The notes under the pieces are model-generated. The model saw only the letters and a program-made list of their open reading frames with translations. It made no database searches and was not told the origin of the DNA. A stretch of 64,000 nt of DNA from Pseudogymnoascus verrucosus (Eukaryota). This document shows, one piece after another, positions 2,591 through 64,000 of this stretch (its first letter is position 1; each line of letters opens with the position of its first letter). The translations under genes were made by a program, and so were the position numbers. The stretch lies in NCBI GenBank assembly GCA_001662655.1, contig KV460240.1, one strand, 5' to 3'.

Positions 2591-5500
2591 GAGCGATTGG
2601 GAGTCAGTTACGTTACGGAGCACTTGAGCGCGCATCTCAGGAGTTTCAAAAGGGTCAAATGGGATGGATATGGATATACGAATTGATGAGATTAATGAGA
2701 TAAATGAATGACACGTATGAATACACGCGTTGTTGTTTCGCGTGACTGTTCTGTTGATGTCTGCCTATTGTAAGGGTGTCTGCCTGCCTGCCTGCCTGGT
2801 GTTATTTCTACGCACTTCCATCCTTCTCTTCACTTACATCACGGTTAGAAGCTGAGAGAAAGATATTGGTATGTATAGTAGTTGAGAGGATGAATTAGCT
2901 TAATATATACAAGATAACTCTGATAATCTAGGTGCCTTCTGTCTGCATGTGCATGAGGTTGTGTATACATATGCTCGACGTAATGGAAATAGTGATATAT
3001 AGGAGAAGCTAGAAATAGGCAACATAATGGAGGAATTTAGGGAGACTGTATGAGTTGCCTTTTGAATTTCTTAGAATGATGTGACTAGTAAAGACTGCCT
3101 GTCTAATGGCTATGAGATAGAGAGTGCATATCTAGTTACAACGCACTAGACTAATGAGCCTCTAAATAACATTTAGCCCGCCGCTTAAATCAAAGGTATA
3201 TTGCAGCACCGTAGGCCTCCTATCTAGTGCATGCCCCTTTACCTAGTGTCCATCTAGATCACAGCCTTAATAGGCTTATAGTTATAGTTGCATGCTTATA
3301 CGCAAAGCTTCTGTATGATAACACTCCCATTGAGCAGACTGTGGACGAGATGGATAGAGGGATGGAATGGATAGACAGACGAGCAGATGGACAGAGGGAC
3401 GGGATAAAAAAACAAACGAACAGGTGAACAGAGGAGAGTAGGAGCAGATAAAGAAACAAGCAGAGCAACATATGAGAGGAGAAACAGATAGATAGAACAG
3501 ATAAGTAGATTGGAGGAGGAGTATATGGATAGAACGTATAACATAACAAGCGACGAACAAACGAGAAGATAAACAGAACAACATATGAACAGACAACCAA
3601 AGCAGATAATCAGACAATAGGAGTAACACAAAGCAACACACAACACAATAGGGGCAACCAACCCTGCCAAACACAGAGAAAACAAGACCACATACCTCAC
3701 CGCGAGCCAACCCAAACACCTCATGCCTCCCCATCCCAATCAGCCACCACAACAACACCAACCTGACTCGACGGACGGACAACCACACGGACATACAGAC
3801 AAATGACGATGCAAGAAAACCAATTCACTCACTGCCCCGCCCGTCCTCCTCCTCTCGCCATGATATGCACTTCCCCGAATCTAACCGCCCTCATTCCCAG
3901 TCCCCTTCCCGAACCCTCAAGCCAAGTCCCACCTCCCCCTCCCCATCCCAAACAAGCACTCGGGCCCAGCCCGCTACCCTCACACCGCCGATCCCTCGTT
4001 CGCGCCAGATCTAGATCTCCCTCGATTCCCCCTCCTTGCACGTACATACCCAAACTCCGGTTGCACGAGTACTATACTGTAGTGGAGAGAAGTGTACGGT
4101 ACGGTGGCTAGGTGGGTGTGTTGGGGTTGGGAGGGGGAGGAGGGGGAAAGTAGCCGCATCGCATCCCACGGAGAATCCGCGTCCGAAGGCTCATCGGGCC
4201 GGCTGGCGCTGTGTGGTGAAGAGGGGGAAGGAGGGGGAGGCGTGTGCGGGCGGCTTATTGGGTTACAGGCTATTATACTCTACCAGGTGCTGGGGGTCCG
4301 CTTTTCGATTAGGACGTACAGTACGTGGTGCTGTCCTGTCTAGAAGGGTAAGGTAGGAGGAGGCGAGGATGCTGGATTGGGAGGGTGAGAGGGTTAAGGC
4401 GGGCTTGGGTGTGCTGGCTTTAGAAGATGGTGGTGGTGGCTTGGCTACTTCTGTTCGGTTTTGGAAGTTAGCCCTATAACACAACCCTCACACCAAGTTG
4501 CTGCAGATAGTGCGAGAAATAGATACACCGATAGATATAGTACTATACTATACTATACCATCCACCCATCCCCAAGAAAGCCGCATACAGCACACCACAC
4601 GGCCCTACAACGGCCCCCCGAACCGCTGTCACCGTATCAACCTACTTCCTCACTTACTCACTCACTTGCTTACTAATTGTCTCATCTCGCGCCGCGCTGC
4701 CAGGTCTCGGAGACATACCCTATCTGACTGAAGTGAGACCTTGTCTCGGCTCACCGGCGGGGTCTGGAGCGCACTATACAGCGCTGTAGATCGCAGCACG
4801 CATCATGCTTAAGGCTGCTTGCGGATACGGGGTTGGGCTGGGCTGAAGATTTACTAATGCTGTGGTTGTGGTGATGAGATCTGGCATTGGTGTGGTGCCG
4901 CGGCTTAATTAGTTCGGTGTGTGTGTGTGTGAACCTAACTTTACTGCGTGTGCTAGGCCTAACTTTAACATATCCTGCAACAGAGTTTGGAGTAAACCAG
5001 GCTGGACTGGTTGGGCTAACGCAGGATAGACCGGGAGAGCGCTGTAACGTTGTCAGAGCCTCAACCTCAGCCTGTAGTTCCCCCGATGGAGGATCTCGGC
5101 GCTACCTGCTGCTGGCACAATCCTCTAATTATTCTGTATCCAGTACAGACAGCGATCTCCTGCACGCCAACCTTCTCTAGCCCCCTAGCCTTACCACACA
5201 CACCTCGGCGTCTAAAACAAACAAACATTTTATTTTTTATTTTTACCCTTTCCCAAATTTCCTATTTTTTTTCTTATTTCTTCCCTTAGTTCGCTGCCAT
5301 CATCATGACACCGAGCAACCTCGGCCGCTTATCTGTGTCCGTTACTTACGGCGGTTCCGAGATATACGTGAATGCGAAACCGTGGATGGGAGAGTTTGGA
5401 AGGGCGGCTGAGCCAAGATGACGGGACGACGGCGGCGGGCGAGGCCGGTTGGATTTGTGTTTTCGATCTGATACCCGGGTATACAGTACGTAGAGTAAGT

Positions 5501-8500
5501 AGGAGATCCCGTCTCTGTCCGAGGAGGTGAGTATACGTAGAGTAAGTAAAGCAAAGCAAGTAGACAGAAGTCAAACTCTCTCAGCGAACCGTTAGAGAAA
5601 ATAACCTTCCCACCATCCATATATCGAAGCGGTTCCGAATTTGTCTCGGCCTCCCATCTCCCTCCCCCTTTACGCCTCCGAATAAAAGTGTTACACGACA
5701 TAAGCGCACACACTACTATACCCCCTTTACATTACCTTAAACAATAGATAGGCAACAGATAGGCACCTCATCCCGGAGCCTCCTCCTCCTCGTCCCACCA
5801 CCTCCCCCCCCCTGCACGGCATCCCCGAATCCAGCAATCTTCCAGAAGCCCCCCATAGAAGAAGTTTTTTTTCTTCTTCTCCTTCTTCATGGATCGTGGG
5901 TGGATTTTTGTGGCGCACACACCACCCACCCCCGTTTCCTTTTTTTCCCTTGACCGCGGCTGGCGAGAGACCGACCGGGCTAGATTGGGCTGGAGGGTAA
6001 AAAAGTGGGGGAAGCGAATCTGTAATAGGAACAGAAAGCCGGGGAGGATGGGTGGGGCCGTGTGTGGATACGGTTCGTGAGATTTGAGATTCGAGATTCT
6101 TTGTACCTTTTGGATGTACCGCCGTATAGTGGAGAGAAAGAAGGGAAGGTAGATTAGGTGGTGGCGAAATCTGTAATTTTTTTCTCTCGTCTCTCTTTAC
6201 TGTAAGGGTCTTTTTAGAGTAAGTCGATTATCTGGCGTCAAGACGGGACGGGTGAGTTCGGGAAGCGTTGTGGGTGACAGATGGAGTGGCCAGAGAGGCG
6301 TGGTGAGGGGACAGGCGGCGGGTGAAGAAGGGGGGTAGGGTAGGCAATTAGGATAATCAGCCCTGTCCTGTCCCCCAGGGTATCAGGGTGATGAGACGGA
6401 GTAATTTATCGAGATAAGAAGACTTCATCGCTGGGATAGTTACTGTATGGTATGGTAGATAATAGATGGGCTGTTACAGCAGATAGATGGGGAGTGGATA
6501 TATATAAGAGCGCGTTAAGATATAGATATAGTGGTCTCTTCCATGATGTTTGATACATGTCTTGGTCCTGTGTGAGAGGGACAGGATAATATGTCTCGCC
6601 GAGGCAAGCAGCGACGATCTGATCGGCGTGCCGCGTGGGGGTTAATCTACTCACCTCTCACTCTACTAGCACGCACTACACTCTACTTACTCCATTACTA
6701 TATTGACGCCACCGTTTCCCATCACCACCCACTCTCCGAGACCGGGGATCCGCGCCGGTTTGATAGTTCAGCGGGGTTCTTTCGCAAGTTCGAGTGAGAG
6801 TCGCGAGAGTGCTAAGGGTCTATCTGGCCTGTGGGGATTGTGCAATGGTCCTCGATGAGTGCGTGCGCAGTGGGTATACCTGCCTGTAGTAGGCATTTTT
6901 TTGGCGTGTAGAGCGGGTTATTACAGTGCATTATCGATTCCCTCACCCTCTGGCGTTGTAGTAGAACAGATAAAGCACAAACCCCACACGTGCTCTCCCC
7001 CCAGTAGTAGTGAATCCAAGAACCGTATCATCATCACTCCCAAACAACCGTTACATCTCCCGTGCCCATCCCCAAACCCCTCGGCGACGCAGCATGACGG
7101 CATAGTGAGGTGAGTGGCGAACTCACCTCTCCCTCTTTCCCATCTTAAACCGTAACATTCCCATCCCCATCCCCATCCGTCCTTTCAGGATATGCAAACC
7201 GCCAAACCTGCAACCTTGGAGAAGGTACAAACGCCTAGCACCGCCGATCCCCAGCCGTTGGCTGCGACGCTGGCGGGTTTTAGCCTGAGGGTGGAAAGGT
7301 TGGCAGAGGGTTGGCAGACGACGTGCGTGGGGGTCTTGCTAAATGGGTGGATGGGATGGCGCGACGGTGTGGGGTTTGGTTGGTTGGTTTGGTGTGTGTG
7401 GTGGCGGGTCGGTTTGGTTTGGCTCCGATTTCTTTCGCTAAAGGCAGGAGGAGCAGAATCTGGAGAGGGAGGAGGTGTTGTATTGGACCATTGGACCTTG
7501 GTTGGTACGTCTGTGTTTCGGGGGATCATTCCCGGGCCGCTAGACCCTTCTTTTTTTGTGCGCAGGACGCATTTGCTACAGTAGTGCCGTCCATGGCATG
7601 AAAGTGAAAGTAAGAGGAAAGGTACGTACCCACTCTTCTTCTTTATTCCCATTCCCATTCCCGGGGTCTGGCTGGCTGCGCGGAGGAGGCTTGTGGTTGC
7701 CAGAAGGAACACGAAAAAGAGACGCTACTGCGCGCAGGCTGTCGGCTGGAACGGGGTAAAATGGTAAATGGGGTGAGATGGGTTAAGTAGACAGGGTTGG
7801 TGAGCAGGGGCAGGCGAGATGGGGGGGGTTGCTTGCTGATCGAAGAGGTAAGGGGTGGTGAGAGGGATGCAAGGGGGGAGCACGTGCGGTGTCACGCGCT
7901 GGGGTGAGGTGGGTTTGGTGCTTCTGGAAGGAATGGGGGTGAGATGAGGTAGGGTGGGGTTAACGGGGGTTGAGTGGTGGTGGCCGGCTGGGGGAAGGTA
8001 AGGGAGGGATGATGAGGCTGGGATGTTGGAGATCACGGCGTCGGGGTCGCAGTTGTGCCGTCTCTATCGCTATCGCTGTCCATCTCTGTCATCTATTCGC
8101 TCTTCCCATTACAAAACAAGCAAACAAGCCACAAACCCAACCGTCATCAGCCATATCTGCCACCTCACACACCACCCACTCATCCAAATCCTGCTTTGTC
8201 ATTTCACTCTCCCCTTCCCTCCTCCCCCAATCAGCCATCACGCAACTCGTCACATCTCCTCTCTCTCACCCGGCGCTAGTCTATCACCATCTCCACTTCT
8301 CCCTTCGCCCCCCTCGCCTGCATACAACACAAATCGAACCAACCACCACACTACCCCCGAAATGGAAGTGGCGTCCGGGTGATTGGCTCTGGAGTGGGGC
8401 GAGCCTGGCCGCTTGGGGGTTGGTGGCAAGGTTCTAGCGTCGTTCTAGTGAGGACGGGGGGTGGTGGTGCTAGTATGGGATTGGGTGGTTTGGATGGATT

Positions 8501-11500
8501 GCTTTTTTGTGTTGGTGGTGTTCGGCTTGCGCGGTTGCTTGGGATTGGATTGGATTGACCTGGGTGGGTGGCTGTGTGTGTGGTGGTGATGCTATGCTGA
8601 GTGAGTTTGGGATGGGGTGATTGGGGGTAGAAGATACTTGGGCGCAGTATCGGTGTGCGGTGTGGAGTGGCGGTATCTTGTACGACGGTGTAGCCTGTGT
8701 TGGTGCCTTTTTCCCCACACCTTTTCGCGCCTTCCAACTCCTTCGAAGTACGCCTTCTATCCCCTCTCTTCCCTCTTCCATGCAGCAGAGTACAAGGGAT
8801 AAGAGGAGAGGAGAGTCCAGCCTGGTCCAGTGACCAGGGAGGTGCAGAGGGAGGTACTCTTGCCATATAGATTGTGTACGGAGGGACTTGATGATGCATA
8901 CTACACTATGCTATGCTATCGATAACCAATCCAACCCAACTCTCCGTTTGCTGGATTGTATGGGATGGGCGGCGTGACAGGATTGTGTCATATCTCCTAC
9001 TCTATTCATCATCTATTGCCATCTTCCATCATATAATCCCATCATATACTGTCATATACATACTGTAGAATGTAGAATGTAGAATGTATAGAATAGAATA
9101 CATATTATTTCGTATAGACAATGTATCTTATCGCGTCCAGATAATCCTGTATGGTCCATCCATCCCTATAATCTGGAGTACAGTAGCATAATAATTAGTA
9201 CTCTAAATTCCTGCCGGGTACTATTATTACTGCCGCCATACTACCACCGCCATGCTACCATACTACCCTATCCCATCCCATCCCCCCCCTCTACTCTCCC
9301 ACTCTAGTATGAACAGCAGAGATCGGCGTTTCCGTGGCTCTGTCATCTCGTCATCTCAGTCACCTTCGTCACATCGTTCGCTCATATCGTCACATTTATT
9401 TATCAGCACTCAGTCACACTCAGTCACACTCAGTCACTCATCTCAATTCATTCATCCTCGGCCTCTAATCCGGCTCACTAATCTTACCAGTCCTTCTTGA
9501 ACCCTGGCCCTGACAACCCTCTTAACCCTCCCAAAGCATACCTATCCTTCCCAATATAGTACCAGTAACTCTCCCATTCCTCTCTTATTGATTGTCTTTG
9601 TGTCTGTATTCGTCTATTGTCTCCTTACTGGGCTCCTCTTTCTCCTCTTTGACCCTTGAACATTCCATCTCGCCTCCATCTCGCCTCAAAGCACTCTACG
9701 AACCCCTACACATCCTCTTACATTGCTGCACTCTACCTGCACTTCTACCTGCACTTCTACTCTATTGCACATAAACGCCAAGCCTACGCCCTGCCGCCCG
9801 CCTGTCTCCCCTACCCTGCGCCAGCCCTTGCCTGTCAAATCGACTGGGACTGGGAACTGACGACCGAACGATTCATCCATCCGAACTCCTTGACTCCACC
9901 AACCTCGCCACCGAACCCTGAGCAGCGTACACTCTACTCCCTACTTCCCGTACTCTATTCTTTCCTTCCCTTCCAGAAGCGATAGAAGAAGAAACGACCG
10001 GCGAAGGAGGAGAGTACCTGCTCCTGGTACTTTATCTCTACTCTACGATTACTCTAATACCCTGCCGCTACTTATCCGCCGCGCTTCGCTGTTCTCGAAC
10101 TGCTGCTTGTTTTACTCTCGCTGCTTCCTGGCCCTGCCTGCTCCACCAACAAACTCTCTCTCAACCCACTCTCTTACTCAACTGTACAACTATTCTATTT
10201 GTACAGTAAAGAAAAAGGTAAGAAAATAACACCTCGTTGCCACCCTCACCTCATATCTGCTTCCCAAGAAACTCCACCGCCCGCTACAATCCACTCTGTC
10301 CACTCGTCGTCGTTGTTCAAACCCCCCAAGTGGCACCTCGGACACTCTCGCAACTCGCACCTTTGCACAGTGGCAACCTGCAACCCGCAAGACCCGTTGC
10401 GACCAGCCTTCCTCTTCTAGTAACCTAGCCTGACTTGCCATACGGAGCACTATTTACTTACTTTTTTACTTGTAGTACTCAACATCAACGACAAAAGTTA
10501 CTTACTTGCTCAAAACCAGGCCTTCCATCATTCCGCTGTCCCACGCCCCTCCCTGACCCCGAAAAGAAAAGTCTCCACTGTACGGATTGAACGGACTGAG
10601 CGGACTGAACGGAGTACTCGCCTTTATTACGTCTTGGCCCCACAAGCACCCACAAGCATCCACTATTCAGAGTACCTTACTACTGAAATACCCACTTCGG
10701 ATCTCAGATGCACAGAAGCCTCTTTCGAAACATCCATAACGACCCATATCCCTTCTCCGAGACCAGCCCATCCTTCCCGACCGACCCATTCACTCATTTC
10801 TGCGCGAGAACGTGCTGTCTTTAGCCGCGCCAAACCGATCCCCGTTTGCTCCATACGCTCCATACGATCCATATCGATCCATATCCGCTCCATACCTTAC
10901 CTCACACAAGCACAAGCACACAATCACACCTTGCGAGCCTTGACAGCAAAAAAAAGGCTGCCAGCCGTTGCCTCTTTTCCAGGGCAGTGGGACTATAAGT
11001 GGACTTAGTGCCCATTACCGCACCACCTTGGTGTCACCCGCTACGAAAAAAAGAAAGAGTAGTTATTACGAAAAAAGAGGAATCTACGAATCGGGTCTTT
11101 ACATACATCGTCACTGGCGACACAAAGAATCTGTCACAGGCTACTCTCTCTTATACCTCTCCTTCCCGACACTCTCGCCAACGTTACACGAAGGGTTACT
11201 CAAAGGCACGTTGTGACCACCGCCACACCAACATACACCACGACTCTCACACCCATACCATACATTCGGACGCGCGGAGCCCAGGAAACATTCCTGACGA
11301 AGCACTGCATAACGCTTGACACCCGGGTGTCTTGGAACGGAAACGGAGATCGCCAACCATTGGAAGTTTGATCGGCTACCTACATGCGTTAAAAGTGATT
11401 CGTCGTTTCTTAGATCCTCCAGTCAAATCGAAGACCCTCTTTTGTCCCAAACGCGACTCCAAAAAGGTCGTTGTCCTCATTACCAGATACTCTACTGCAT

Positions 11501-11609
11501 TACACATACACGACGTTGCCAATGCTGTCGATATAGAAACGTCTCTCCATCTTTCAGTACACGAAAGAGCAGGAGCAGTAGCATAGCCGGAAAAGAGGCC
11601 AAGGGCTTC

Positions 11610-12791
11610 ATGAGGTTCTCCCGAATCGCAATGAGAAAGTCGAAACGACCGAAACAATTATCTCAACAAAACCACGAAGAAAATACCGCTTATCCCTCGC
11701 CGAGGTGCTCTGCGGTCGTCTTCGACTGGGACGCCGACGACGAATTCATGTCGTCTGGCGACAACCTGCCATCGAGGCCACTGAGCCTTGCCATACCCGC
11801 TGGCCCATACTGCCCACGAAGGCCGACACTACGAGAGGTGCTCGCAAACTCGGCACCGCCGCCATGGACGCTCAGCGCCTTTATGGCCTACCTTTCACAA
11901 AATCACTGTTTGGAAACACTAGAATTTACAATGGATGCTTCGCGGTACCGGAAACATTATGAAACATTACGAGAGAATAGCCGTGGGCTACTAATTACAC
12001 CGTCGACGGAGGGTTGCGAATACGTTCGTATGCTATGGCAGAAGCTGCTGGATGCCTACATCACACCGAATGGACCCCGCGAGGTCAACCTACCGTCCGA
12101 CGTTCGCGATCGCCTCGTCTCTGCCCCAAACCACTTCACACCACCACACCCCTCACAACTCGATACGGCCGTCAGGATAGTGTATGATCTCATGGAGGAG
12201 AGTGTCCTTGTGCCCTTCCTTAATTCCGTCTCGGTAACGCGAGGCCCCACCACCTACTCGAGTCCGTACCCGTCGACGGATGATATGTCGGGTATGCTCA
12301 CACAGGAGTCTCGTAACTACTCCGGATCCTCTTCACAGTCAGGCTATGGAAGTTCGAGCCGTGACACACAAACTTACTCCGGACCTCTACGCCCGTCACA
12401 ACCTTCTCACCTTGCGCTTGCCCTTAAGCGTGGCCTCGGTTCTCATTATACCTCGTCTACGACCAGCAGCGCCGAAGCAAACGACGACTCCTACACCGAC
12501 GACAGCATGAGCACCGCCGACTCTCCGACTTCCCTCGGTGAGCCCATGACGCCCCCAATCACACCACCCACATCCGACTCGCTCGACTTCTCCGATTCAA
12601 GCCCGAAGGCGAAATCCGGGTCCGCCTGGGAGAAGATGGGCTTCAAGTGGGGACTCCGCAAGACGCGCCCCTCGCACACCTCCGAATCCAGCTCGAGCAC
12701 CTCGAGCTACCCGCACGCGCCTCGCCACAATGCCAACCAATACAATCCGAGCACATCCAGCAGCTACCCGCACGCCCGCCCTCCGCAATAG
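11610..12791 (+). CDS. Regulator of G-protein signalling (RGS domain; RgsA/Rgs2-like)
   Basis: Intronless ORF with the RGS box RRPTLREVLANSAPPPWTLSAFMAYLSQNHCLETLEFTMD...YITPNGPREVNLPSDVRD...VYDLMEESVLVPFLNS. First in-frame ATG is at 11610; the frame is open from 11316. Confidence 0.9.
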   Translation: MRFSRIAMRKSKRPKQLSQQNHEENTAYPSPRCSAVVFDWDADDEFMSSGDNLPSRPLSLAIPAGPYCPRRPTLREVLANSAPPPWTLSAFMAYLSQNHCLETLEFTMDASRYRKHYETLRENSRGLLITPSTEGCEYVRMLWQKLLDAYITPNGPREVNLPSDVRDRLVSAPNHFTPPHPSQLDTAVRIVYDLMEESVLVPFLNSVSVTRGPTTYSSPYPSTDDMSGMLTQESRNYSGSSSQSGYGSSSRDTQTYSGPLRPSQPSHLALALKRGLGSHYTSSTTSSAEANDDSYTDDSMSTADSPTSLGEPMTPPITPPTSDSLDFSDSSPKAKSGSAWEKMGFKWGLRKTRPSHTSESSSSTSSYPHAPRHNANQYNPSTSSSYPHARPPQ

Positions 12792-13589
12792 GGAGCGCAG
12801 ACCGCGCCGAGATCCTCCGTCCCCCACGCTCCGCCGCCCTCGCAGAGGATCCCCGCCTCCGTGCTGCCACCCGCAGCCACGATGACGGCCCCCTTCGAGG
12901 TAGACCCGCACCGTCCATCGCCCGCTATCTCCGCGATGGCAACGATGGCCGGAGCGGGCGCGGCGAATGTGTTAGAGACGAAAGGAGTCGACGTGGTCGC
13001 AAAATCAGAGGCGTCTGCGCCTGCGCCCACGGAACCTACACGAGTAGCACCACCGACGCCGAAACCGAAACCGAGACGCAGGATTCCACGCCCGAGTTTG
13101 CAGAATCAGTATATCTACGCTCACCCGGCGCCGACGCTTAACTCTATCCTCGCAGCTGAGGCAGCGCGACCTGTCACGGCCGCCGAAGCTGAGGAGGTGG
13201 AGATCGATTGGAGACTCGTCGCTGCTGCTGCGTCGAAACGAGGCCGCAATCCGAGCGTGACGAGTAATGAAACCGCGCTCTTCACACCGGCGATGAGCAT
13301 CACCTCGCTCGCGAGCACGCTCGTCGATCGCGCGAGCGTGCACTCTTCTACTACTGCGGCGGGGTCCCAGTCGGCGGATCGGTACGGGTGGGAGGAGAGC
13401 CTTAGTGCGAGGTCGAGCCTTGAATTGGGGTCGAGGGCGAGTGAAGAGACGACGAGGGGTTTTAGTCTGGGTGATGATATGATGGCACCCCCGCCTGCAG
13501 CGGCGCAAGAGAGAGCCCATGAGAGGGGCTTCATGGGGAAGAAGGGGCTGTTGTGGAAGGTGCTCACTATGAATGCACGGGGAGTATGA
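12792..13589 (+). CDS. Stop-free in-frame continuation of the RGS ORF (265 codons): a readthrough extension, or a separate hypothetical protein from ATG 12882
   Basis: Same frame as RGS with no stop between TAG 12789-12791 and TGA 13587-13589. Composition is coding-like, it ends ...GFMGKKGLLWKVLTMNARGV, and AT/GT-rich UTR-like sequence follows. Confidence 0.6.
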   Translation, partial: GAQTAPRSSVPHAPPPSQRIPASVLPPAATMTAPFEVDPHRPSPAISAMATMAGAGAANVLETKGVDVVAKSEASAPAPTEPTRVAPPTPKPKPRRRIPRPSLQNQYIYAHPAPTLNSILAAEAARPVTAAEAEEVEIDWRLVAAAASKRGRNPSVTSNETALFTPAMSITSLASTLVDRASVHSSTTAAGSQSADRYGWEESLSARSSLELGSRASEETTRGFSLGDDMMAPPPAAAQERAHERGFMGKKGLLWKVLTMNARGV

Positions 13590-14628
13590 GAAGAGAAACT
13601 TCTTGTCCATATTTATACGACGACAAGACCAGAGAAATGTTTTGAAAAATGAGGTCAAATTGTATGCACAGCGCGGAGCATTTATTTTTGGAAATTTTTA
13701 GAGATGGGGGCGTCATTACGCGGAAAAGGGATTATGGAATGGGATAAGAGGGAAAAGGAGCGTTTTTTGGGGGGGGGAATACTCTCAGCTTTTTTGGAAC
13801 TACGAGGATTTATCATACGATGGCGTTTTTTTGGGCTTGGGATGGGGGAATTGAGCATTTACAACGATAGGGGGTGTCTGTTCTAGGACTGTGCATAGGC
13901 TATTGGAGTTTTTTTTTGTACTTGTGTGTGTGGTGGGCGATTGGGATGAGATGGGGGAACGGGGGCATTGAGCGTGTGATGCTGTTTGTTTGGATATATC
14001 CTATAGATGTTTTGGAGGGACGATGAGAGAGTGGAGATGGAGTGATGGATGATATATAATTATACCCTCAACTACTTTACAAACAAACAACTCTATCTCG
14101 TGTGTCTGATTGTGATAAATTGTGATAAATGTGATTTAGTGAGGGGTGATAAAGAGGCAAGGTGGTGCTGGAGAGGGATCGGATGAGAGGGAGGCGGGTA
14201 GGCGGCAGCGGATAGAACGGAGTACGTGAGTGAGTGAATTACAACGCGTGTGTGTGTACGTGGCTTTTTATTCCCTCAAATATCTCACGTACTTATCTCA
14301 CCACATTCATAGAGGTGTGCCTACCATAACCAAGCCCCGCTCTTCGGGGATCTGTTCATGCTTTTGCCATATATCTTCGTTTTCATCGGGCCTAGCATAT
14401 ATAGGCACGCACAAGCACACGGGCTGGATCCGAGTCAAGTTATCAAAGGTTATCATATATATACCAAACCAAACCACCCCATATATCCCCCTCCCCCCAT
14501 CTACACCCCCTTCTAGTATAACGCACCGCCCTGATCCAAGAAAACTCCTCCCATGCAATCCCCCCATCCCCCCAACCCTCCACACATCAACACATCAACT
14601 CTCACAACCCCCCCGCCTCCTTCACCTT

Positions 14629-15885
14629 TTACTCAGTAACCTCCCACGCCCTAACCGCTCCATCATCCCCACTCGAAACTACCATCTCCCCCTCCTTCCC
14701 ATCAAACCGCTGACACCACGTAACATGATTAATCTCATACGGTCCATGTCCCATTTCCGCTGTGGCGAGGATCTTCCAGTTTCCTGGGCCAACCTTCTCT
14801 CCCTCCTCCCCATTCCCCTCCCCCTTCTCCCCCTCCTTTTCCCCCTCCTTCCCCTCCTCCTCCCCCTTCCCCGCATCCTCAGCCTTCACCTCCCCATACA
14901 CCACAATCCTCGAATCCCCCCCACAACTCACCACCCTCCCTGTCCTCTCACTCCACGCCACCGCATACACAGCCCTCGTATGCGCCTTCGGCAACACCGC
15001 CTCAAGCACCCATTTCTCCCCCTGCGCTGCCGCCCGCATCGTCGATGGGATCCCGCCACTCTCCGCCTCCGCAGCTTCGACGCGGCGCCAGACGCGGAGA
15101 GTCGTGTCGGCTGAGCAGGTTATTAGGCGGCGGTGTTTATGCTTCTGTGCGTCCTCCTCCTCGGGCTTGGAATCAGCCTCTGCCTGGGACTGGGAAATAG
15201 ACTTCGACTCCGCACCACCTTCCCAAGCAACACCCCAAACCGTCTCCTCCCCCCCCTCAAGCACACCAACACACCCCCATTCCCCCTCCGCATCCTCCCT
15301 CCACACGCGCACCGTGCCATCGTAACTGGAGCTGGCTAGACACTCCCCTTCATCGCCCTCGCTCGGGGCCCAGGCAACGCACTTCACATCCCCTTCGTGC
15401 TCGGTTAGGACGGCGACGGTCTCCCATTCATCGGCACCGTCGACTTCTTCCCAGATCCAGATACTCTTGTCGCGGGAGCAGGTGGCGAGGTATTGGCCTG
15501 AGGGACTGAAGGCTAGGGATTTGACTTCGGCATCGTGGCCTTCGAGGACGACGCTGAATTCCCAATCCTCCCCCTCTTCCCTGTCCTCCACTTCGCCGTC
15601 ATCCCCGGTGCTCTCATCGCGCCGCCATACTCCGGCGGTACCGTCGAAGGATCCGGTCACCAAGCCGAGTTCGCCGGGGCGGAGATGCGGTTTCCAAGCC
15701 GTAGAACGGATAGAGCGGGTGTGGCCGCCTTCGAGGATGGAGTGAGGGGTTGAGGTGCGGAGAGAGGTTATTTGGGCGGATTTGCCGAGGGAGGTCGAGA
15801 GGAGGGGGAGCGTGGGGTGGGGGGTTGAGTGCCAGGCGCGGTGGGGGGAGGGGGGGTGGAGGGGGGGGAGAGGGGTTAGTTGCAT
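14629..15885 (-). CDS. CIA1: Cytosolic iron-sulfur protein assembly WD40 protein Cia1
   Basis: Intronless 418 aa WD40 protein: GHTRSIRSTAW, VLEGHDAEVKSLAFSPSGQYLATCSRDKSIWIWE, TEHEGDVKCVAW, YEINHVTW. Confidence 0.93.
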   Translation of the reverse strand: MQLTPLPPLHPPSPHRAWHSTPHPTLPLLSTSLGKSAQITSLRTSTPHSILEGGHTRSIRSTAWKPHLRPGELGLVTGSFDGTAGVWRRDESTGDDGEVEDREEGEDWEFSVVLEGHDAEVKSLAFSPSGQYLATCSRDKSIWIWEEVDGADEWETVAVLTEHEGDVKCVAWAPSEGDEGECLASSSYDGTVRVWREDAEGEWGCVGVLEGGEETVWGVAWEGGAESKSISQSQAEADSKPEEEDAQKHKHRRLITCSADTTLRVWRRVEAAEAESGGIPSTMRAAAQGEKWVLEAVLPKAHTRAVYAVAWSERTGRVVSCGGDSRIVVYGEVKAEDAGKGEEEGKEGEKEGEKGEGNGEEGEKVGPGNWKILATAEMGHGPYEINHVTWCQRFDGKEGEMVVSSGDDGAVRAWEVTE

Positions 15886-17048
15886 TGTTGTGGTGGTGGG
15901 GGGTGGGTGGAGGTTGTAGGTGTTTGGGGGGTTGGAGAGGTGAGGTGAGGTTGGTAGGTAGGCAGTTTGCAGGTTGGGAGGTGAGATTGTATGGATTGTA
16001 TTGTGGTTGTGGTTGAATCCTCGATGGCGGGGTTGTGATTCGAAGGAGGGGTAGCTCCGTATGCTATCTGCGCGGAGACGTCGGATGCTCCGCTTGGTAT
16101 CGTCAAGCTAAGAATTGCCGGGGATGGTATAGACACAGGTAACGCTCCAGTCGATGTATGTCGCGTCATGTGCACTTCCGTGATTATATATTTATTTCCT
16201 CACTATCGCAGTGCGTAACCGAATTGATCAATCAGCCTCGTCTGGCAGCGTGGGGGATTGGCGGGGCCGGTGCCGGATCAACGACCCCGCCGAGACGGCG
16301 GGTTCACCACCTACCACTTACCACTTACCACTTACCACTATCTTTTTGATACCACCACTACTCCTATATATTAGGAGGCTATCTAACCAGACTTTGACAG
16401 ACAACGACGGAATACGAGTAATGTAGAGAAAGCATAAAGGGAAGTTTACTTTCAACTTACAGAGCTAGCGAGCCTCTTCCATGGATTATGGATTACACTG
16501 GACTACCGTCTCAATACCTTCGATTGGCAAGCCTCTTGACTGGCACGTAACGAATCTAATCAGTATCCTCCACCGGACAGTTTGAACTATTTGATGTTGC
16601 TGTCATTGCTATTTGTCGTTGCCGCTTTCTATTGCCGTCACCGTTTTGCTGTCACCGTTGCTATTACTGTCACCACGTCGTACTATCACCACCATTCCTT
16701 CTAACCTCCCAGAAATAACATACGCCGTCTCACCAAACCTTCACACCTCCCCTATCAGTTACTCGTGGCGCCGTTGCAGTCTTTAGGGGGGCAACTTCCA
16801 TCGCTTCGTCGGTGACCGTGGGATGACTCGTTGGGATCAAAGAACGTCCGCAAGTTGCTCGCTCATTGATCTAATATATTCGCCAACGAGCGCGCATGGA
16901 ACGTATTCTTTGGATGGCGCTTCGGTGTTGGATTCCCTTGGATAAAGGATATATATGAGATAGGTTTTCTTGGTTTGGTTAGGTGATTATTCTTTTGATA
17001 TTTTTGGGGACGGTAGAGAAGGGGTGTTGCAGTAGGTGAATTTATAAA

Positions 17049-61858: not shown

Positions 61859-63016
61859 CTACTTCAACAGGCTCTCCTTGACACTGATGGGCCCCTCGCC
61901 GACACCAGTGAAGATAACGCGGCTAAGTCCCTCCTGCAGCGCCTTCACTGCCCTCTCATCCAAATGCGCCGCATCACTCGTCTTAACCTCCTCTCCCTTG
62001 CCCTCCCAGCCCTCGACAGAGCCCAACACAGACTTGATAGCTCCCGCAACCTCAGCCATGTGCTCCTCCTCAAAGTAGATAACGCAGTTTGGTCCAGCAT
62101 CAAACGTATATGCCGCAATAATCTTGCCAGCCTTCTCGTTGATCGCCTCAACCACTCTGATCGCAGCTCTGCTGGTATCATTGAGGTAAAAGATGGGTGG
62201 GAAGGTATCCAAGCACGTAGCGTGGAAGCTGTTGCTCTCCATCATGGTAACCTTGCCAAACAGCTCAAAGTCCTTATCCTTAACAGCTTTAATCATCTGC
62301 TCCATGTGCTTTGGCACCACAATCTCCGCACGGCGCTGGAAAAGCTCGGATGTTGCGACGGTGGTCTGCATGCCAGCCGTGCTGGACACGCCCTTCTTCT
62401 CGGCCGAGGCGACGAGGATCAAGGCGCGCATGTTGGGCCAGTGAGACGCTGGCGCAATCTCAACAGCCTGGGAATCCGATCCATCAGCCGCAGACCCCAT
62501 ATCCCACGCCACGTATCCGCCGAAGAGAGAGCGGCATGCCGAGCCAGAGCCCTGGCGGGCGATTTTCGAAAGCTCAGTCTTCGTCGCTGGGAGTTGGTAC
62601 AAGTCGGCGATAGCGCGGACCAGAGCAGCGAATCCGGCAGCGGAAGAGGCGAGCCCGGCAGCGGTGGGGAAGTTGTTCTCGGACACGATCTTGAGTGTCA
62701 ATGTGGAGAGCTTGGGGAGAGAGGGGTCGGCGGCCTCAAGGGCGGCGCGGAGGGAGCGCAGTTCGCGGAAACAGGCTTGGGTGCGTGCGCCGGAGACGTC
62801 CTGTGGTGAGCCATTGAGGAGGAGAGAGTCGTCGGATCCGAAGGTGGAGGAGCAGGCGGCGGTGGTGTGAGTTCTCAGGTCGGATTGGGAAAGGGTCACG
62901 GAGAGGGACGAGTTGGTAGGGAGGTTTAATTTGGGGTCGCGCTTGCCCCAGTACTTGACGACGGCAATGTTGACGGGCGCAGTGGTGCTGGCCTGGTAGA
63001 CTGTAGAATCGGCCAT
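61859..63016 (-). CDS. ERG19: Diphosphomevalonate decarboxylase
   Basis: APVNIAVVKYWGKRD, NNFPTAAGLASSAAG, ARQGSGSACRS, YTFDAGPN. Intronless, ATG at 63016. Confidence 0.97.
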   Translation of the reverse strand: MADSTVYQASTTAPVNIAVVKYWGKRDPKLNLPTNSSLSVTLSQSDLRTHTTAACSSTFGSDDSLLLNGSPQDVSGARTQACFRELRSLRAALEAADPSLPKLSTLTLKIVSENNFPTAAGLASSAAGFAALVRAIADLYQLPATKTELSKIARQGSGSACRSLFGGYVAWDMGSAADGSDSQAVEIAPASHWPNMRALILVASAEKKGVSSTAGMQTTVATSELFQRRAEIVVPKHMEQMIKAVKDKDFELFGKVTMMESNSFHATCLDTFPPIFYLNDTSRAAIRVVEAINEKAGKIIAAYTFDAGPNCVIYFEEEHMAEVAGAIKSVLGSVEGWEGKGEEVKTSDAAHLDERAVKALQEGLSRVIFTGVGEGPISVKESLLK

Positions 63017-63260
63017 TTTGAGTAAATTTTGAAGACTTGTGGAGAGAATTGAAAGGGGTTGCAATAGAGGGGTTGTTGGAAAGTGATGAGGGGTTGAAGG
63101 CGGTGAGGACTAAATACACTGGGTTGTGGTCTTGGGGCCAGACCAATCGGACATCATAGCGGGAGCAACCGTGCAGGGGCCCAAAATTATTAATGATGCC
63201 CTGTCGCCATCTTCTCGTCTCCCAGCGCGCTTCCAAGAATCCCGACTCACATACGCAAAC

Positions 63261-64000
63261 ATGGGCAAATCTCCAGAGGCAGAGGCGCCAGCCGAGGTGT
63301 GCCCCGTCGATGACAAGACCCGCGCGGCGTGGTTGAAGGCAAACCCAACGGCGTCGTTCCCCGGCGCAGCGAAGGGAGCGAGCGACGCAAAGAAAGGCAA
63401 TGCCTGCGATTCCGAAGATATCACCCAGGCTCCTCCGGCGCAGCCTGGGCTATTCGCGCGATTTTTCTCTTCGACGCCTCCTGCGGATGCGGCGGCCGTG
63501 TCGACAGGACTCGGTACGCAGCGCGTGGTTTCGACAATCCCTCGCGCATCGCCAGTCGACGACAGCGAAGGCTCGAAGCCGGCGAATAGCGAGAAGGAGA
63601 GCGGAGTTAGTGCGAGCGGGAACTGGATATACCCTTCAGAGAAGATGTTCTTTGATGCAATGAAGAGAAAGGTACGTATATTGGGATTGAATTGACGGAC
63701 GTTTCTGACAGTTGTTCCAGGGTCACTCAAGCGATCCTAAGGAGATGAAGACCATCGTACCGATACACAATGCAGTAAACGAGCGAGCATGGAAGGAGAT
63801 CAAGGAATGGGAGAAGCCATATGGAGCCGACGAGAAATGTGGAGGACCTAGGCTACACTCATTCCTGGGACTCTCAACCTCGATGTCTCCGAAGGCACGC
63901 TTCAACAGTCTGCTTGGATATACTACACCATTCGATCGCCACGACTGGATTGTTGATAGGTGTGGCAAGAAGGTTGAGTATATCATTGACTTTTATGCTG
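63261..64000 (+). CDS. CYT2: Holocytochrome-c synthase family protein, probably cytochrome c1 heme lyase (3'-truncated by the window edge)
   Basis: CPV heme-regulatory motif, RVVSTIPR, NWIYPSEKMFFDAMKRK, IHNAVNERAW, SPKAR, PFDRHDW. Intron 63672-63720. Confidence 0.85.

What the first reader, a model, noticed from the sequence alone, without database searches (positions are those of the whole stretch)
12640..13589. RGS gene: single UAG between two in-frame ORFs, a candidate for programmed stop-codon readthrough or recoding
Seen in sequence: the RGS ORF ends CCG CAA TAG GGA GCG CAG and the same frame then runs 265 sense codons to TGA 13587. A peptide repeat crosses the stop: SSYPHAPRH and SSYPHARPP before it, SSVPHAPPP after it. 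No promoter-sized gap or 3'-UTR-like sequence separates the two parts (the next in-frame ATG is ~90 nt after the stop), and UTR-like composition only begins after 13589. Established: CAA immediately 5' of UAG favours readthrough in yeast, gammaretroviral gag-pol readthrough uses UAG-GGA plus downstream structure, and some ascomycetes convert UAG to UGG by sexual-stage A-to-I editing. Inference: the locus makes a short (393 aa) and a long (659 aa) RGS isoform, the long one adding a tail ending KKGLLWKVLTMNARGV that could act as an amphipathic or docking motif. A dicistronic mRNA is an alternative.
Basis: partly seen in the sequence, partly recalled or inferred. Interest (0 to 1): 0.85.

Follow-up and report, generated by a model that had tools for sequence, protein, structure and literature searches.

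The report
Conserved UAG inside fungal RGS gene
A G-protein regulator gene of a Pseudogymnoascus-like fungus is interrupted by one UAG stop codon that has been kept in place across distant relatives, so the conserved 265-residue "next gene" is probably a tail added to the regulator when the stop is occasionally read as an amino acid.

Summary
A 393-codon RGS ORF (ATG 11610) ends at TAG 12789-12791, and the same frame runs 265 more codons to TGA 13587-13589.

The downstream frame codes for protein. It has 16 homologues with invariant motifs. Against a 90%-identical relative it shows 44 synonymous versus 20 non-synonymous codon changes.

All ten Pseudogymnoascus RGS proteins retrieved end at the same residue. 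Public annotations call the tail a separate hypothetical protein, or in one case bridge the stop with an off-frame exon.

Two distant metagenomic relatives (tail identity 43% and 31%) have the same layout: RGS ORF, a single TAG followed by G, then the tail in the same frame. Neither has an ATG ahead of the conserved tail motifs. No plausible canonical intron removes the stop.

I conclude that this is one gene with a conserved recoded UAG (about 0.75). How the stop is passed is not shown. Translational readthrough is my first choice (0.45). A-to-I editing of UAG to UGG is second (0.2) and fits the sequence context, but this editing has not been reported in Leotiomycetes. No known leaky context or significant RNA structure was found, and no RNA data covered the gene.

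The parts
11610..12788 (+). Upstream ORF, 393 codons: the short RGS protein, annotated as such in Pseudogymnoascus genomes
   Evidence: The exact sequence is in the public collection, and a 90% cluster of 10 proteins (347-395 aa) all end ...SSSYPHA[R/P]PPQ.
11868..12227 (+). RGS domain (residues 87-206)
   Evidence: Pfam PF00615, E 2.4e-10, 41.2 bits against a cut-off of 23.9. The same domain is found in L002 and L003.
12705..12775 (+). Two in-phase copies of a 14-nt repeat (AGCTACCCGCACGC; peptide SSYPHA) just before the stop
   Evidence: family D3, 100% identical, spacing 57 nt = 19 codons.
12761..12850 (+). Least-diverged 90-nt stretch of the ORFs between the window and L001; it spans the stop
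   Evidence: 1 substitution against about 8.6 expected; codon-position-preserving permutation p = 0.044 for any window this low.
12789..12791 (+). In-frame TAG, the candidate recoding site (context CAA TAG GGA GCG CAG)
   Evidence: TAG is identical in L001. L002 has TAG in CGG TAG GAT GAG CAG. L003 has TAG in AGA TAG GAA TTA CAG.
12792..12881 (+). 30 sense codons between the stop and the first in-frame ATG
   Evidence: Against L001: 4 differing codons, 3 synonymous and 1 non-synonymous in this frame (0/4 and 1/3 in the other two frames); no indels.
12792..13586 (+). Tail ORF, 265 codons: a conserved, mostly disordered C-terminal extension
   Evidence: 16 homologues; 30 invariant columns among 12 sequences. 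Against L001: 44 synonymous and 20 non-synonymous codons, and 49 of 72 substitutions at the third position. AlphaFold2 mean pLDDT 51.8.
13539..13577 (+). C-terminal helix KKGLLWKVLTMNA (tail residues 250-262), the best-conserved motif of the tail
   Evidence: Predicted helix with the highest pLDDT block, 74. K250, G252, L253, L254, W255, V257, L258, M260 and N261 are invariant in 12 sequences.
13587..13589 (+). TGA that ends the long frame
   Evidence: Beyond it the indels against L001 are 5 nt and 1 nt (not multiples of 3), and the substitution rate rises to 0.151.
13590..14200 (+). AT-richer flank with T-runs, 3'-UTR-like
   Evidence: GC 0.43 with no codon-position bias; T6 runs and TATATA occur only here.

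Best explanation
The RGS gene and the 'hypothetical protein' annotated after it are one gene. Most ribosomes stop at UAG 12789-12791 and release a 393-residue protein that carries the RGS domain. A fraction decode the UAG with a near-cognate tRNA (translational readthrough) and continue for 265 codons, giving a 659-residue isoform. The added tail is intrinsically disordered. It carries short conserved motifs (PKPxRRIPRPSLQxQYIYAxPAPT, EIDWRLL, MSxTSLASTLVD, DRYGWEE) and ends in a conserved amphipathic helix (KKGLLWKVLxMNARG). The tail would give the G-protein regulator a different location, partner set or stability. What is shown: the sequence layout; conservation of the stop, the frame and the coding character of the tail in three lineages; the absence of a start codon for the tail in two lineages; and the absence of a plausible intron. 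What is inferred: that the stop is passed at all, that this happens at the ribosome rather than by RNA editing, and everything about the tail's function. My odds are about 0.75 that the tail is made as an extension of the RGS protein by some form of recoding, and 0.45 that the route is translational readthrough.
For: (1) Stop position is conserved. All 10 of 10 Pseudogymnoascus RGS proteins in the 90% cluster end at the same residue. L001 has an identical CAA TAG GGA GCG.
(2) The layout is conserved at depth. L002 has RGS ORF 4621-5823 and tail ORF 5824-6528. L003 has 4723-5907 and 5908-6735. Each has exactly one stop, always TAG followed by G, with both parts in one frame. The read-through proteins are 59% and 45% identical to the window's. 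L003 is syntenic with the downstream WD40 gene.
(3) The tail has no start of its own in two lineages. In L002 the first Met of the tail frame is at ...SPSMSLTSL, after three conserved motifs. L003 has no Met between the stop and the conserved YLSKSAP motif.
(4) The tail is coding in this frame. Against L001 there are 44 synonymous and 20 non-synonymous codons, compared with 8/58 and 7/59 in the other frames. In-ORF indels are 6, 12 and 6 nt. The 30 codons before the ATG show 3 synonymous and 1 non-synonymous change.
(5) No fused annotated protein exists that would point to an ordinary intron. Searches of 362-1154 aa and 623-2000 aa (profile) found only P0002. The middle of P0002 is an off-frame translation of window 12542-13141.
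(6) Splicing is unlikely. Only 3 GT dinucleotides lie within 260 nt upstream of the stop in the window and 3 in L003. All 14 in-frame GT-AG candidates in the window are 165-450 nt long, lack a branch motif and delete conserved coding sequence.
(7) There is local nucleotide constraint around the stop (p = 0.044).
Against: No RNA, ribosome-profiling or peptide evidence was obtainable. No known leaky context is present: the sequence is not UGA-CUA and not UAG-CAR-YYA. G after UAG is, from recall of yeast and mammalian work, a fairly good terminator context. The codon before the stop is not conserved (CAA, CGG, AGA). Folding 112 nt downstream of the stop in four loci gave z-scores from -1.09 to +1.05, so there is no support for a stimulatory structure. 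The exclusive use of TAG, purines at +1 and +3, and placement in a small hairpin loop in 2 of 3 lineages fit RNA editing at least as well. In Pseudogymnoascus itself a conserved ATG (M31 of the tail) could start a separate protein. The comparative depth rests on only three lineages, and DNA across the stop was seen for only four sequences.
Confidence: 0.45

Rival explanations
1. A-to-I mRNA editing converts UAG to UGG (Trp). This would be stage-specific, for example during sexual development or stress, so the genome encodes a 'premature stop' that is corrected in the RNA. This is how PSC genes of Fusarium graminearum work.
For: The stop is TAG in all four DNA sequences seen. The flanks are U at -1, G at +1 and a purine at +3 in all three lineages. 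This matches the reported preference for U at -1 and A/G at +1 and +3 (PMC11156358, section 5). The edited A would sit in a small hairpin loop in the window (CUCC-GCAAUAG-GGAG) and in L002 (CAUCC-GGUA-GGAUG). The three kinds of mis-annotation described for the conserved PSC site of CHE1 all occur here: the stop taken as a canonical stop, the downstream Met taken as a start, and a spurious intron (PMC11169179, passages; compare). PSC genes are enriched for disordered proteins, 50 of 71 (PMC10776026, passages), and the tail is disordered.
Against: [quoted passage not shown] The Ame1-Tad3 interaction that enables it arose in Sordariomycetes, and the Sclerotinia orthologue neither interacts nor complements (PMC11087585, passages). 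No genome-wide editing was found in Botrytis cinerea apothecia (PMC11156358, passages). The hairpins are no more stable than shuffled sequence (z 0.07 and -0.56), and L003 has none. A purine at +3 in three lineages has a 1 in 8 chance. No RNA data are available.
Confidence: 0.2
2. The tail is a separate protein. It would be translated from its own start (ATG 12882 in Pseudogymnoascus), either from an internal promoter or from a dicistronic mRNA. The RGS protein would then always end at the TAG.
For: An in-frame Met aligned with 12882 is present in 9 of the 16 tail homologues. Other gene calls start at a later Met or an earlier GTG. Public annotations treat the tail as its own gene in 8 named assemblies. 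The Atlas also holds the sequence from residue 31 on.
Against: L002 and L003 have no ATG ahead of the conserved motifs. The tail frame is the RGS frame in all three lineages, with no second stop between them. Independent genes do not require this; the chance is about 1/9 for two further lineages on frame alone. The 30 codons before the ATG evolve like coding sequence and are the least-diverged part of the locus. There is no gap, no AT-rich UTR-like or promoter-like sequence between the parts.
Confidence: 0.15
3. An unrecognised intron, alternative or non-canonical, removes the TAG, so the long isoform arises by splicing and the short one by intron retention.
For: GTGAGC at 12538 is a fair donor. 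Automatic annotation of VKM F-4515 (P0002) placed introns here. L002 has 14 in-frame GT-AG candidates with both a G at donor position 5 and a branch-like motif.
Against: The window has no GT between 12648 and the stop. All 14 in-frame candidates in the window are 165-450 nt long, have no branch motif and delete sequence conserved in L002 and L003 (EPMTPP...WxKMGxKxGLR). L003 has 3 GT donors, none with G at position 5. The L002 candidates are 297-390 nt long, also delete the conserved WKKMGLKLGLRR motif, and have no positional counterpart in the other lineages. The P0002 model reads about 150 residues in an Arg-rich off-frame. Contigs of runs X1 and X23 are colinear across the TAG, but they are probably DNA.
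Confidence: 0.07
4. The downstream frame is a decaying relic or a chance ORF in GC-rich DNA, and nothing beyond the TAG is translated.
For: The opposite strand also carries long ORFs here (230 and 163 codons). One other abutting ORF pair in the window is a chance product.
Against: The tail has motif-level conservation down to 31-43% identity, a synonymous-biased substitution pattern, in-frame indels only, and an intact frame in every homologue seen. Only 11 of 20000 shuffles were open.
Confidence: 0.03

Closest known systems
Premature-stop-codon-correction (PSC) genes of Fusarium graminearum, e.g. CHE1, PUK1, AMD1 (A-to-I editing of UAG to UGG by Tad2/Tad3 with Ame1)
   Same: An in-frame TAG is conserved among relatives, lies in the middle of a conserved ORF, and often precedes or sits within disordered regions. 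It produces the same three annotation errors: a short N-terminal protein, a C-terminal protein started at the next Met, and a spurious intron. The flanks are U-A-G with purines at +1 and +3.
   Different: The lineage is Leotiomycetes (Thelebolales), where this editing has not been reported and where the key Ame1-Tad3 interaction is said to be missing. No edited RNA was seen here. The upstream part is a complete functional domain protein, not a truncated fragment.
Functional translational readthrough in fungi and animals at the short UGA-CUA context (peroxisomal isoforms of metabolic enzymes; PMC4207609, seen as search listing and abstract only)
   Same: A cellular gene whose stop is passed at a low rate to add a functional C-terminal extension. 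The stop and the extension are conserved among species.
   Different: The stop is UAG-G, not UGA-CUA. The extension is 265 residues of conserved disordered sequence, not a short targeting signal. No peroxisomal signal is evident (the tail ends ...NARGV).
Gammaretroviral gag-pol readthrough (UAG-G, 8-nt spacer, pseudoknot); recalled, not from a call
   Same: UAG followed by GGA G in the window.
   Different: GGA is not conserved (GAU in L002, GAA in L003). No downstream structure stands out from shuffles. This is a cellular gene.
Conserved readthrough extensions found by coding signatures beyond stops in Drosophila and mammals (e.g. PMC4132726, seen as search listing and abstract only)
   Same: The discovery logic and the hallmarks are the same: perfectly conserved stop identity, a coding-like in-frame extension, and a disordered tail.
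   Different: Those cases are mostly UGA-C. Here the organism is a fungus and the stop is UAG-G.
Single-domain fungal RGS proteins (yeast Rgs2 / Aspergillus RgsA type); the subfamily name is recalled and was not tested
   Same: One RGS domain near the N-terminus followed by a Ser/Pro-rich region.
   Different: No described member, to my knowledge or in the literature searches, has a stop-interrupted C-terminal extension.

Membership tests
RGS domain protein (Pfam PF00615) | Match to the RGS domain profile above the curated cut-off | tested here: met
   41.2 bits against a cut-off of 23.9, residues 87-206. L002 scores 39.7 bits and L003 46.8 bits.
Programmed stop-codon readthrough gene | A single in-frame stop separating two open frames on one strand with no gap | tested here: met
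   the tail ORF begins at the codon after the stop in the window, L002 and L003.
Programmed stop-codon readthrough gene | Stop position and identity conserved among orthologues | tested here: met
   10 of 10 Pseudogymnoascus RGS proteins end at the same residue. The stop is TAG in 4 of 4 DNA sequences.
Programmed stop-codon readthrough gene | Downstream frame evolves as protein-coding sequence in phase with the upstream ORF | tested here: met
   44 synonymous and 20 non-synonymous codons, third-position bias, indels of 6, 12 and 6 nt; conserved motifs in 12 sequences.
Programmed stop-codon readthrough gene | Known leaky context (UGA-CUA, or UAG-CAR-YYA / CAR-NBA) | tested here: not met
   The contexts are UAG GGA GCG, UAG GAU GAG and UAG GAA UUA. 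The only shared features are G at +4 and CAG at +7 to +9.
Programmed stop-codon readthrough gene | Stimulatory RNA structure downstream of the stop | tested here: inconclusive
   z-scores -1.09, 0.20, 0.58 and 1.05 for 112 nt in four loci. Local nucleotide constraint is present, but no covariation test is possible with one substitution.
Programmed stop-codon readthrough gene | Extended protein or ribosome footprints observed | not testable with these tools
   No RNA run covered the gene. No proteomic or Ribo-seq resource was available.
Fungal A-to-I PSC editing site | Stop is UAG with U at -1 and A/G at +1 and +3 of the edited A | tested here: met
   UAGGG, UAGGA, UAGGA, compared with the preference quoted.
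Fungal A-to-I PSC editing site | Edited A lies in a hairpin loop | tested here: inconclusive
   Loop placement is predicted in the window and L002 but not in L003. The folds are no better than shuffles.
Fungal A-to-I PSC editing site | The organism performs mRNA A-to-I editing (Ame1-dependent Tad2/Tad3 activity) | not testable with these tools
   No genome is held for the window. [quoted passage not shown]
Fungal A-to-I PSC editing site | A-to-G change at the site in RNA but not in DNA | not testable with these tools
   Run X1, the only near-identical run labelled metatranscriptomic, shows no A>G change anywhere in the 8 kb laid, but it is probably DNA.
Gammaretrovirus-type UAG-G readthrough signal | Conserved purine-rich spacer followed by a pseudoknot about 8 nt after UAG (recalled definition) | tested here: not met
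   The spacer is not conserved among lineages, and no significant structure was found. Pseudoknots as such were not modelled.

The most novel reading that the evidence does not exclude
The UAG is a regulated switch, not a leak. In Thelebolales and relatives it would be recoded efficiently under a particular condition. One route is an A-to-I editing activity that nobody has yet seen in Leotiomycetes. The other is a new, context-independent readthrough mechanism acting on UAG-G. Either would convert a soluble RGS protein into a long isoform whose C-terminal amphipathic helix and linear motifs re-target it, so that one codon toggles G-protein signalling between life stages.
Probability: 0.2. Interest if true: 0.8.

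Novelty: new member of a known kind. Interest (0 to 1): 0.62.

Why it matters
If the tail is made as an extension, about nine public Pseudogymnoascus annotations split or distort one gene, among them that of the bat white-nose fungus. A regulator of G-protein signalling would then exist in two forms set by a single stop codon. Long, deeply conserved readthrough extensions are barely documented in filamentous fungi. The known fungal cases are short peroxisomal signals at UGA-CUA, or editing-corrected stops in Sordariomycetes. The locus offers a clean test of whether Leotiomycetes edit mRNA after all, or whether conserved UAG-G readthrough occurs without any known stimulatory signal. It also shows that abutting 'hypothetical protein' genes in fungal annotations can hide recoding sites.

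Tried and rejected
RNA evidence:
- The look-up of sequencing runs listed no RNA holder; the best share of words was 0.45.
- Four runs were laid on 9000-17000. X10 and X5, probably RNA of a relative, covered the neighbouring genes but nothing between 11136 and 14606.
- X1 and X23 gave short contigs colinear across the TAG (12641-12907 and 12629-12822), but these are probably DNA.
- The table of differing letters was cut (204 rows not shown), so I could not read the letters at 12789-12791 for X23.
- This says nothing for or against expression.

Genome and earlier notes:
- No whole genome is held for the window. Codon usage, suppressor tRNAs and the editing machinery could not be examined.
- Three look-ups of earlier scan notes found nothing on this locus.

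Fused forms:
- The searches and the representative search (7 hits, all 355 aa or shorter) found no natural RGS+tail protein.
- Lengths of 464-623 aa were covered only by the single-sequence search.
- Both word-indexed searches scored only the 8000 candidates sharing most words.

Other checks:
- ESM Atlas: best score 0.86, below the level that means anything.
- Pfam on the tail: only DUF3759 at E 0.054, below its cut-off.
- RNA structure near the stop: not distinguishable from shuffles.
- The bacterial promoter/terminator scan is irrelevant to a fungus.
- Literature: searches for RGS plus readthrough in fungi and Pseudogymnoascus plus RGS found nothing on this locus. One search failed on a term that was too long.

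Considered and dropped without a test: selenocysteine or pyrrolysine decoding (neither is known in fungi and the stop codon is wrong for selenocysteine, from recall), and frameshifting (both parts are in one frame).
Full report
THE OBSERVATION

The window carries an ORF that starts at ATG 11610 and ends CCG CAA TAG at 12789-12791. The same frame then continues GGA GCG CAG ... for 265 sense codons to TGA 13587-13589. Residues 87-206 of the upstream part match the Pfam RGS domain (E 2.4e-10). The tail matches no family above threshold.

The first in-frame ATG after the stop is at 12882. GC stays at 0.61-0.68 through the tail and drops to about 0.43-0.48 only after about 13600, where T-runs appear. 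Only 11 of 20000 composition-matched shuffles of the tail gave an open 265-codon frame.

The third, after the stop, is only a loose peptide resemblance.

As a control I scanned the whole window for ORF pairs of at least 150 codons each separated by one stop and found two. The other pair (TAG 63110-63112, minus strand) is a mevalonate-diphosphate decarboxylase gene preceded by a family-less frame, so it is a chance product. The abutting layout alone therefore proves nothing.

WHOSE GENE IT IS

Best hits place the window in Pseudogymnoascus (Leotiomycetes, Thelebolales). The exact 393-residue RGS protein is in the public collection. Its 90% cluster holds 10 proteins of 347-395 residues, six of them from named assemblies, including P. 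destructans VC83_03871. All ten end ...SSSYPHA[R/P]PPQ.

The tail alone found 16 proteins of 149-243 residues. Three pairs carry adjacent locus tags: VC83_03871/03870, V501_04924/04925 and VE04_09980/09981.

One assembly (V496_05008, P0002, 801 aa) fuses RGS and tail. Its middle matches the Arg-rich off-frame ORF 12542-13141 of the window. That gene model hops out of frame and back to avoid the stop.

No other fused protein was found among 362-1154 aa, among 623-2000 aa with a profile, or among 1.84 billion representatives (7 hits, all 355 aa or shorter).

THE TAIL IS CODING

Twelve tail sequences that reach down to about 35% identity share 30 invariant columns. These cluster in the motifs PKPxxxxPRPxLQxQYIYA, MSxTSLAxTLVD, DRYGWE and KxGLLWxVLxMN.

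Against L001, a 1015-bp metagenomic contig 90% identical in protein, the tail downstream of the ATG shows:
- 49 of 72 substitutions at third codon positions;
- 44 synonymous versus 20 non-synonymous codon differences in this frame, compared with 8/58 and 7/59 in the other frames;
- indels of 12 and 6 nt inside the tail and 6 nt in the pre-stop part of the RGS ORF, but 5 and 1 nt after the TGA.

AlphaFold2 on the alignment predicts mostly disorder (mean pLDDT 51.8). It predicts three short helices, the best being the C-terminal KKGLLWKVLTMNA.

THE STOP IS OLD, AND THE TAIL HAS NO START OF ITS OWN

A scan of metagenome contigs with the tail profile returned three loci.

L001 has the identical CAA TAG GGA GCG.

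L002 (tail 43% identical) has an RGS ORF at 4621-5823 ending ...EENIR TAG. The tail ORF at 5824-6528 follows in the same frame.

L003 (tail 31% identical, syntenic with the window's downstream WD40 gene) has 4723-5907 ending ...EGDIR TAG, then 5908-6735 in the same frame.

The read-through translations align end to end at 59% and 45% identity. The stop lies in a variable Ser/Pro-rich linker. It is 31-43 residues after the conserved WxKMGxKxGLR motif and about 24-33 residues before a conserved (S/T)xSAP-like motif.

In L002 the first Met of the tail frame comes only at ...SPSMSLTSL, after three conserved motifs. In L003 no Met lies between the stop and YLSKSAP. A separate start therefore cannot explain conservation of those motifs.

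In a fast-evolving, indel-prone linker, three lineages have kept one stop, always TAG followed by G, with both parts in phase. On frame alone the chance is about 1/9 for the two extra lineages. On stop identity it is about another 1/9, assuming equal stop-codon usage.

Between the window and L001, the 30 codons between stop and ATG show 3 synonymous and 1 non-synonymous change. The 90 nt around the stop (12761-12850) are the least-diverged part of the ORFs: 1 substitution against about 8.6 expected, permutation p = 0.044.

SPLICING

Enumeration of all in-frame GT-AG introns that would remove the stop gave the following.
- Window: only three GT dinucleotides lie within 260 nt upstream of the stop (12538, 12620, 12647). 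The 14 candidates are 165-450 nt long, have no branch-like motif and delete sequence that is conserved protein in L002 and L003.
- L003: three GTs, none with G at donor position 5.
- L002: 87 candidates, 14 with both a G5 donor and a branch-like motif. These are 297-390 nt long, delete the conserved WKKMGLKLGLRR motif and have no counterpart in the other lineages.

A conserved canonical intron is therefore unlikely. Non-canonical or alternative splicing cannot be excluded without RNA.

HOW THE STOP IS PASSED

This is not settled.

Readthrough context. None of the known leaky motifs is present. The preceding codon varies (CAA, CGG, AGA). The shared features are G at +4 and CAG at +7 to +9. Folding 46 nt around the stop and 112 nt downstream of it in the loci gave z-scores between -1.09 and +1.05.

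Editing. The site fits the published preferences of fungal A-to-I editing: U at -1 and purines at +1 and +3. It lies in a small hairpin loop in the window and L002, although these hairpins are no better than shuffles. The mis-annotation pattern is the one described for the conserved PSC site of Fusarium CHE1.

Against editing, the papers I read in passages state the following. [quoted passage not shown] It was absent from Botrytis apothecia. It depends on an Ame1-Tad3 interaction that arose in Sordariomycetes.

I therefore rank translational readthrough first (0.45), editing second (0.2), a separate tail protein third (0.15), splicing fourth (0.07) and a relic last (0.03).

WHAT COULD NOT BE DONE

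No listed run is on record as RNA, and none holds more than 0.45 of the words. The four runs laid gave no cover of the gene from the probable RNA runs, and only short, probably DNA contigs colinear across the TAG. No genome is held for the window. Expression, transcript ends, editing and the organism's tRNA and editing genes are therefore untested.

VERDICT

The in-frame UAG is an ancient, conserved feature of this RGS gene, and public annotations mis-split the locus. It is a new member of a known kind (a recoded stop with a functional extension). The context matches neither the known fungal readthrough motif nor a lineage known to edit mRNA.

Noticed in passing
window 61862-63736 (minus strand), TAG at 63110-63112: This is the second stop-separated ORF pair in the window (208 + 416 codons). 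The downstream part is mevalonate-diphosphate decarboxylase (PF18376, PF22700) starting at a Met 36 codons after the TAG. The upstream frame matches no family and looks non-coding. It is a chance pair and served as a control.
   Followed up: yes
P0002 (V496_05008, Pseudogymnoascus sp. VKM F-4515) compared with window 12542-13141: The public 801-aa gene model joins the RGS part to the tail through about 150 residues that match an Arg-rich off-frame reading of this locus. It also has a 176-residue N-terminal extension that does not align to the window's protein. It is probably an annotation artefact caused by the conserved stop.
   Followed up: partly
window 14632-16107 (minus strand); L003 8660-9788: The downstream neighbour is a WD40-repeat protein (PF00400, E 1.7e-35) and is syntenic in L003. 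Contigs of runs X10 and X5 cover it at high depth while giving nothing over the RGS gene.
   Followed up: partly
window 10335-11135: Run X10 has a very deep contig (depth 840) here, just upstream of the RGS gene, with a 55-nt joint at 10560-10616 (ends GA..GT, not canonical on either strand as printed). It may be a highly expressed small transcript or 5' exon of a relative. I did not identify it.
   Followed up: no
L002 5821-5832; L003 5905-5916; window 12789-12800: All three lineages read TAG-G-purine, five variable bases, then CAG (Gln at the third codon after the stop). With three sequences this may be chance, or it may be part of a recoding signal.
   Followed up: partly
P0021, P0022 (tail relatives, no DNA seen): These more distant tail homologues carry a KGLGLxFL...SSRSSS stretch after the SKSAPLE motif. 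It resembles the pre-stop WKKMGxKLGLRRS motif of the RGS part, which hints at internal duplication or a rearranged linker in that lineage.
   Followed up: no
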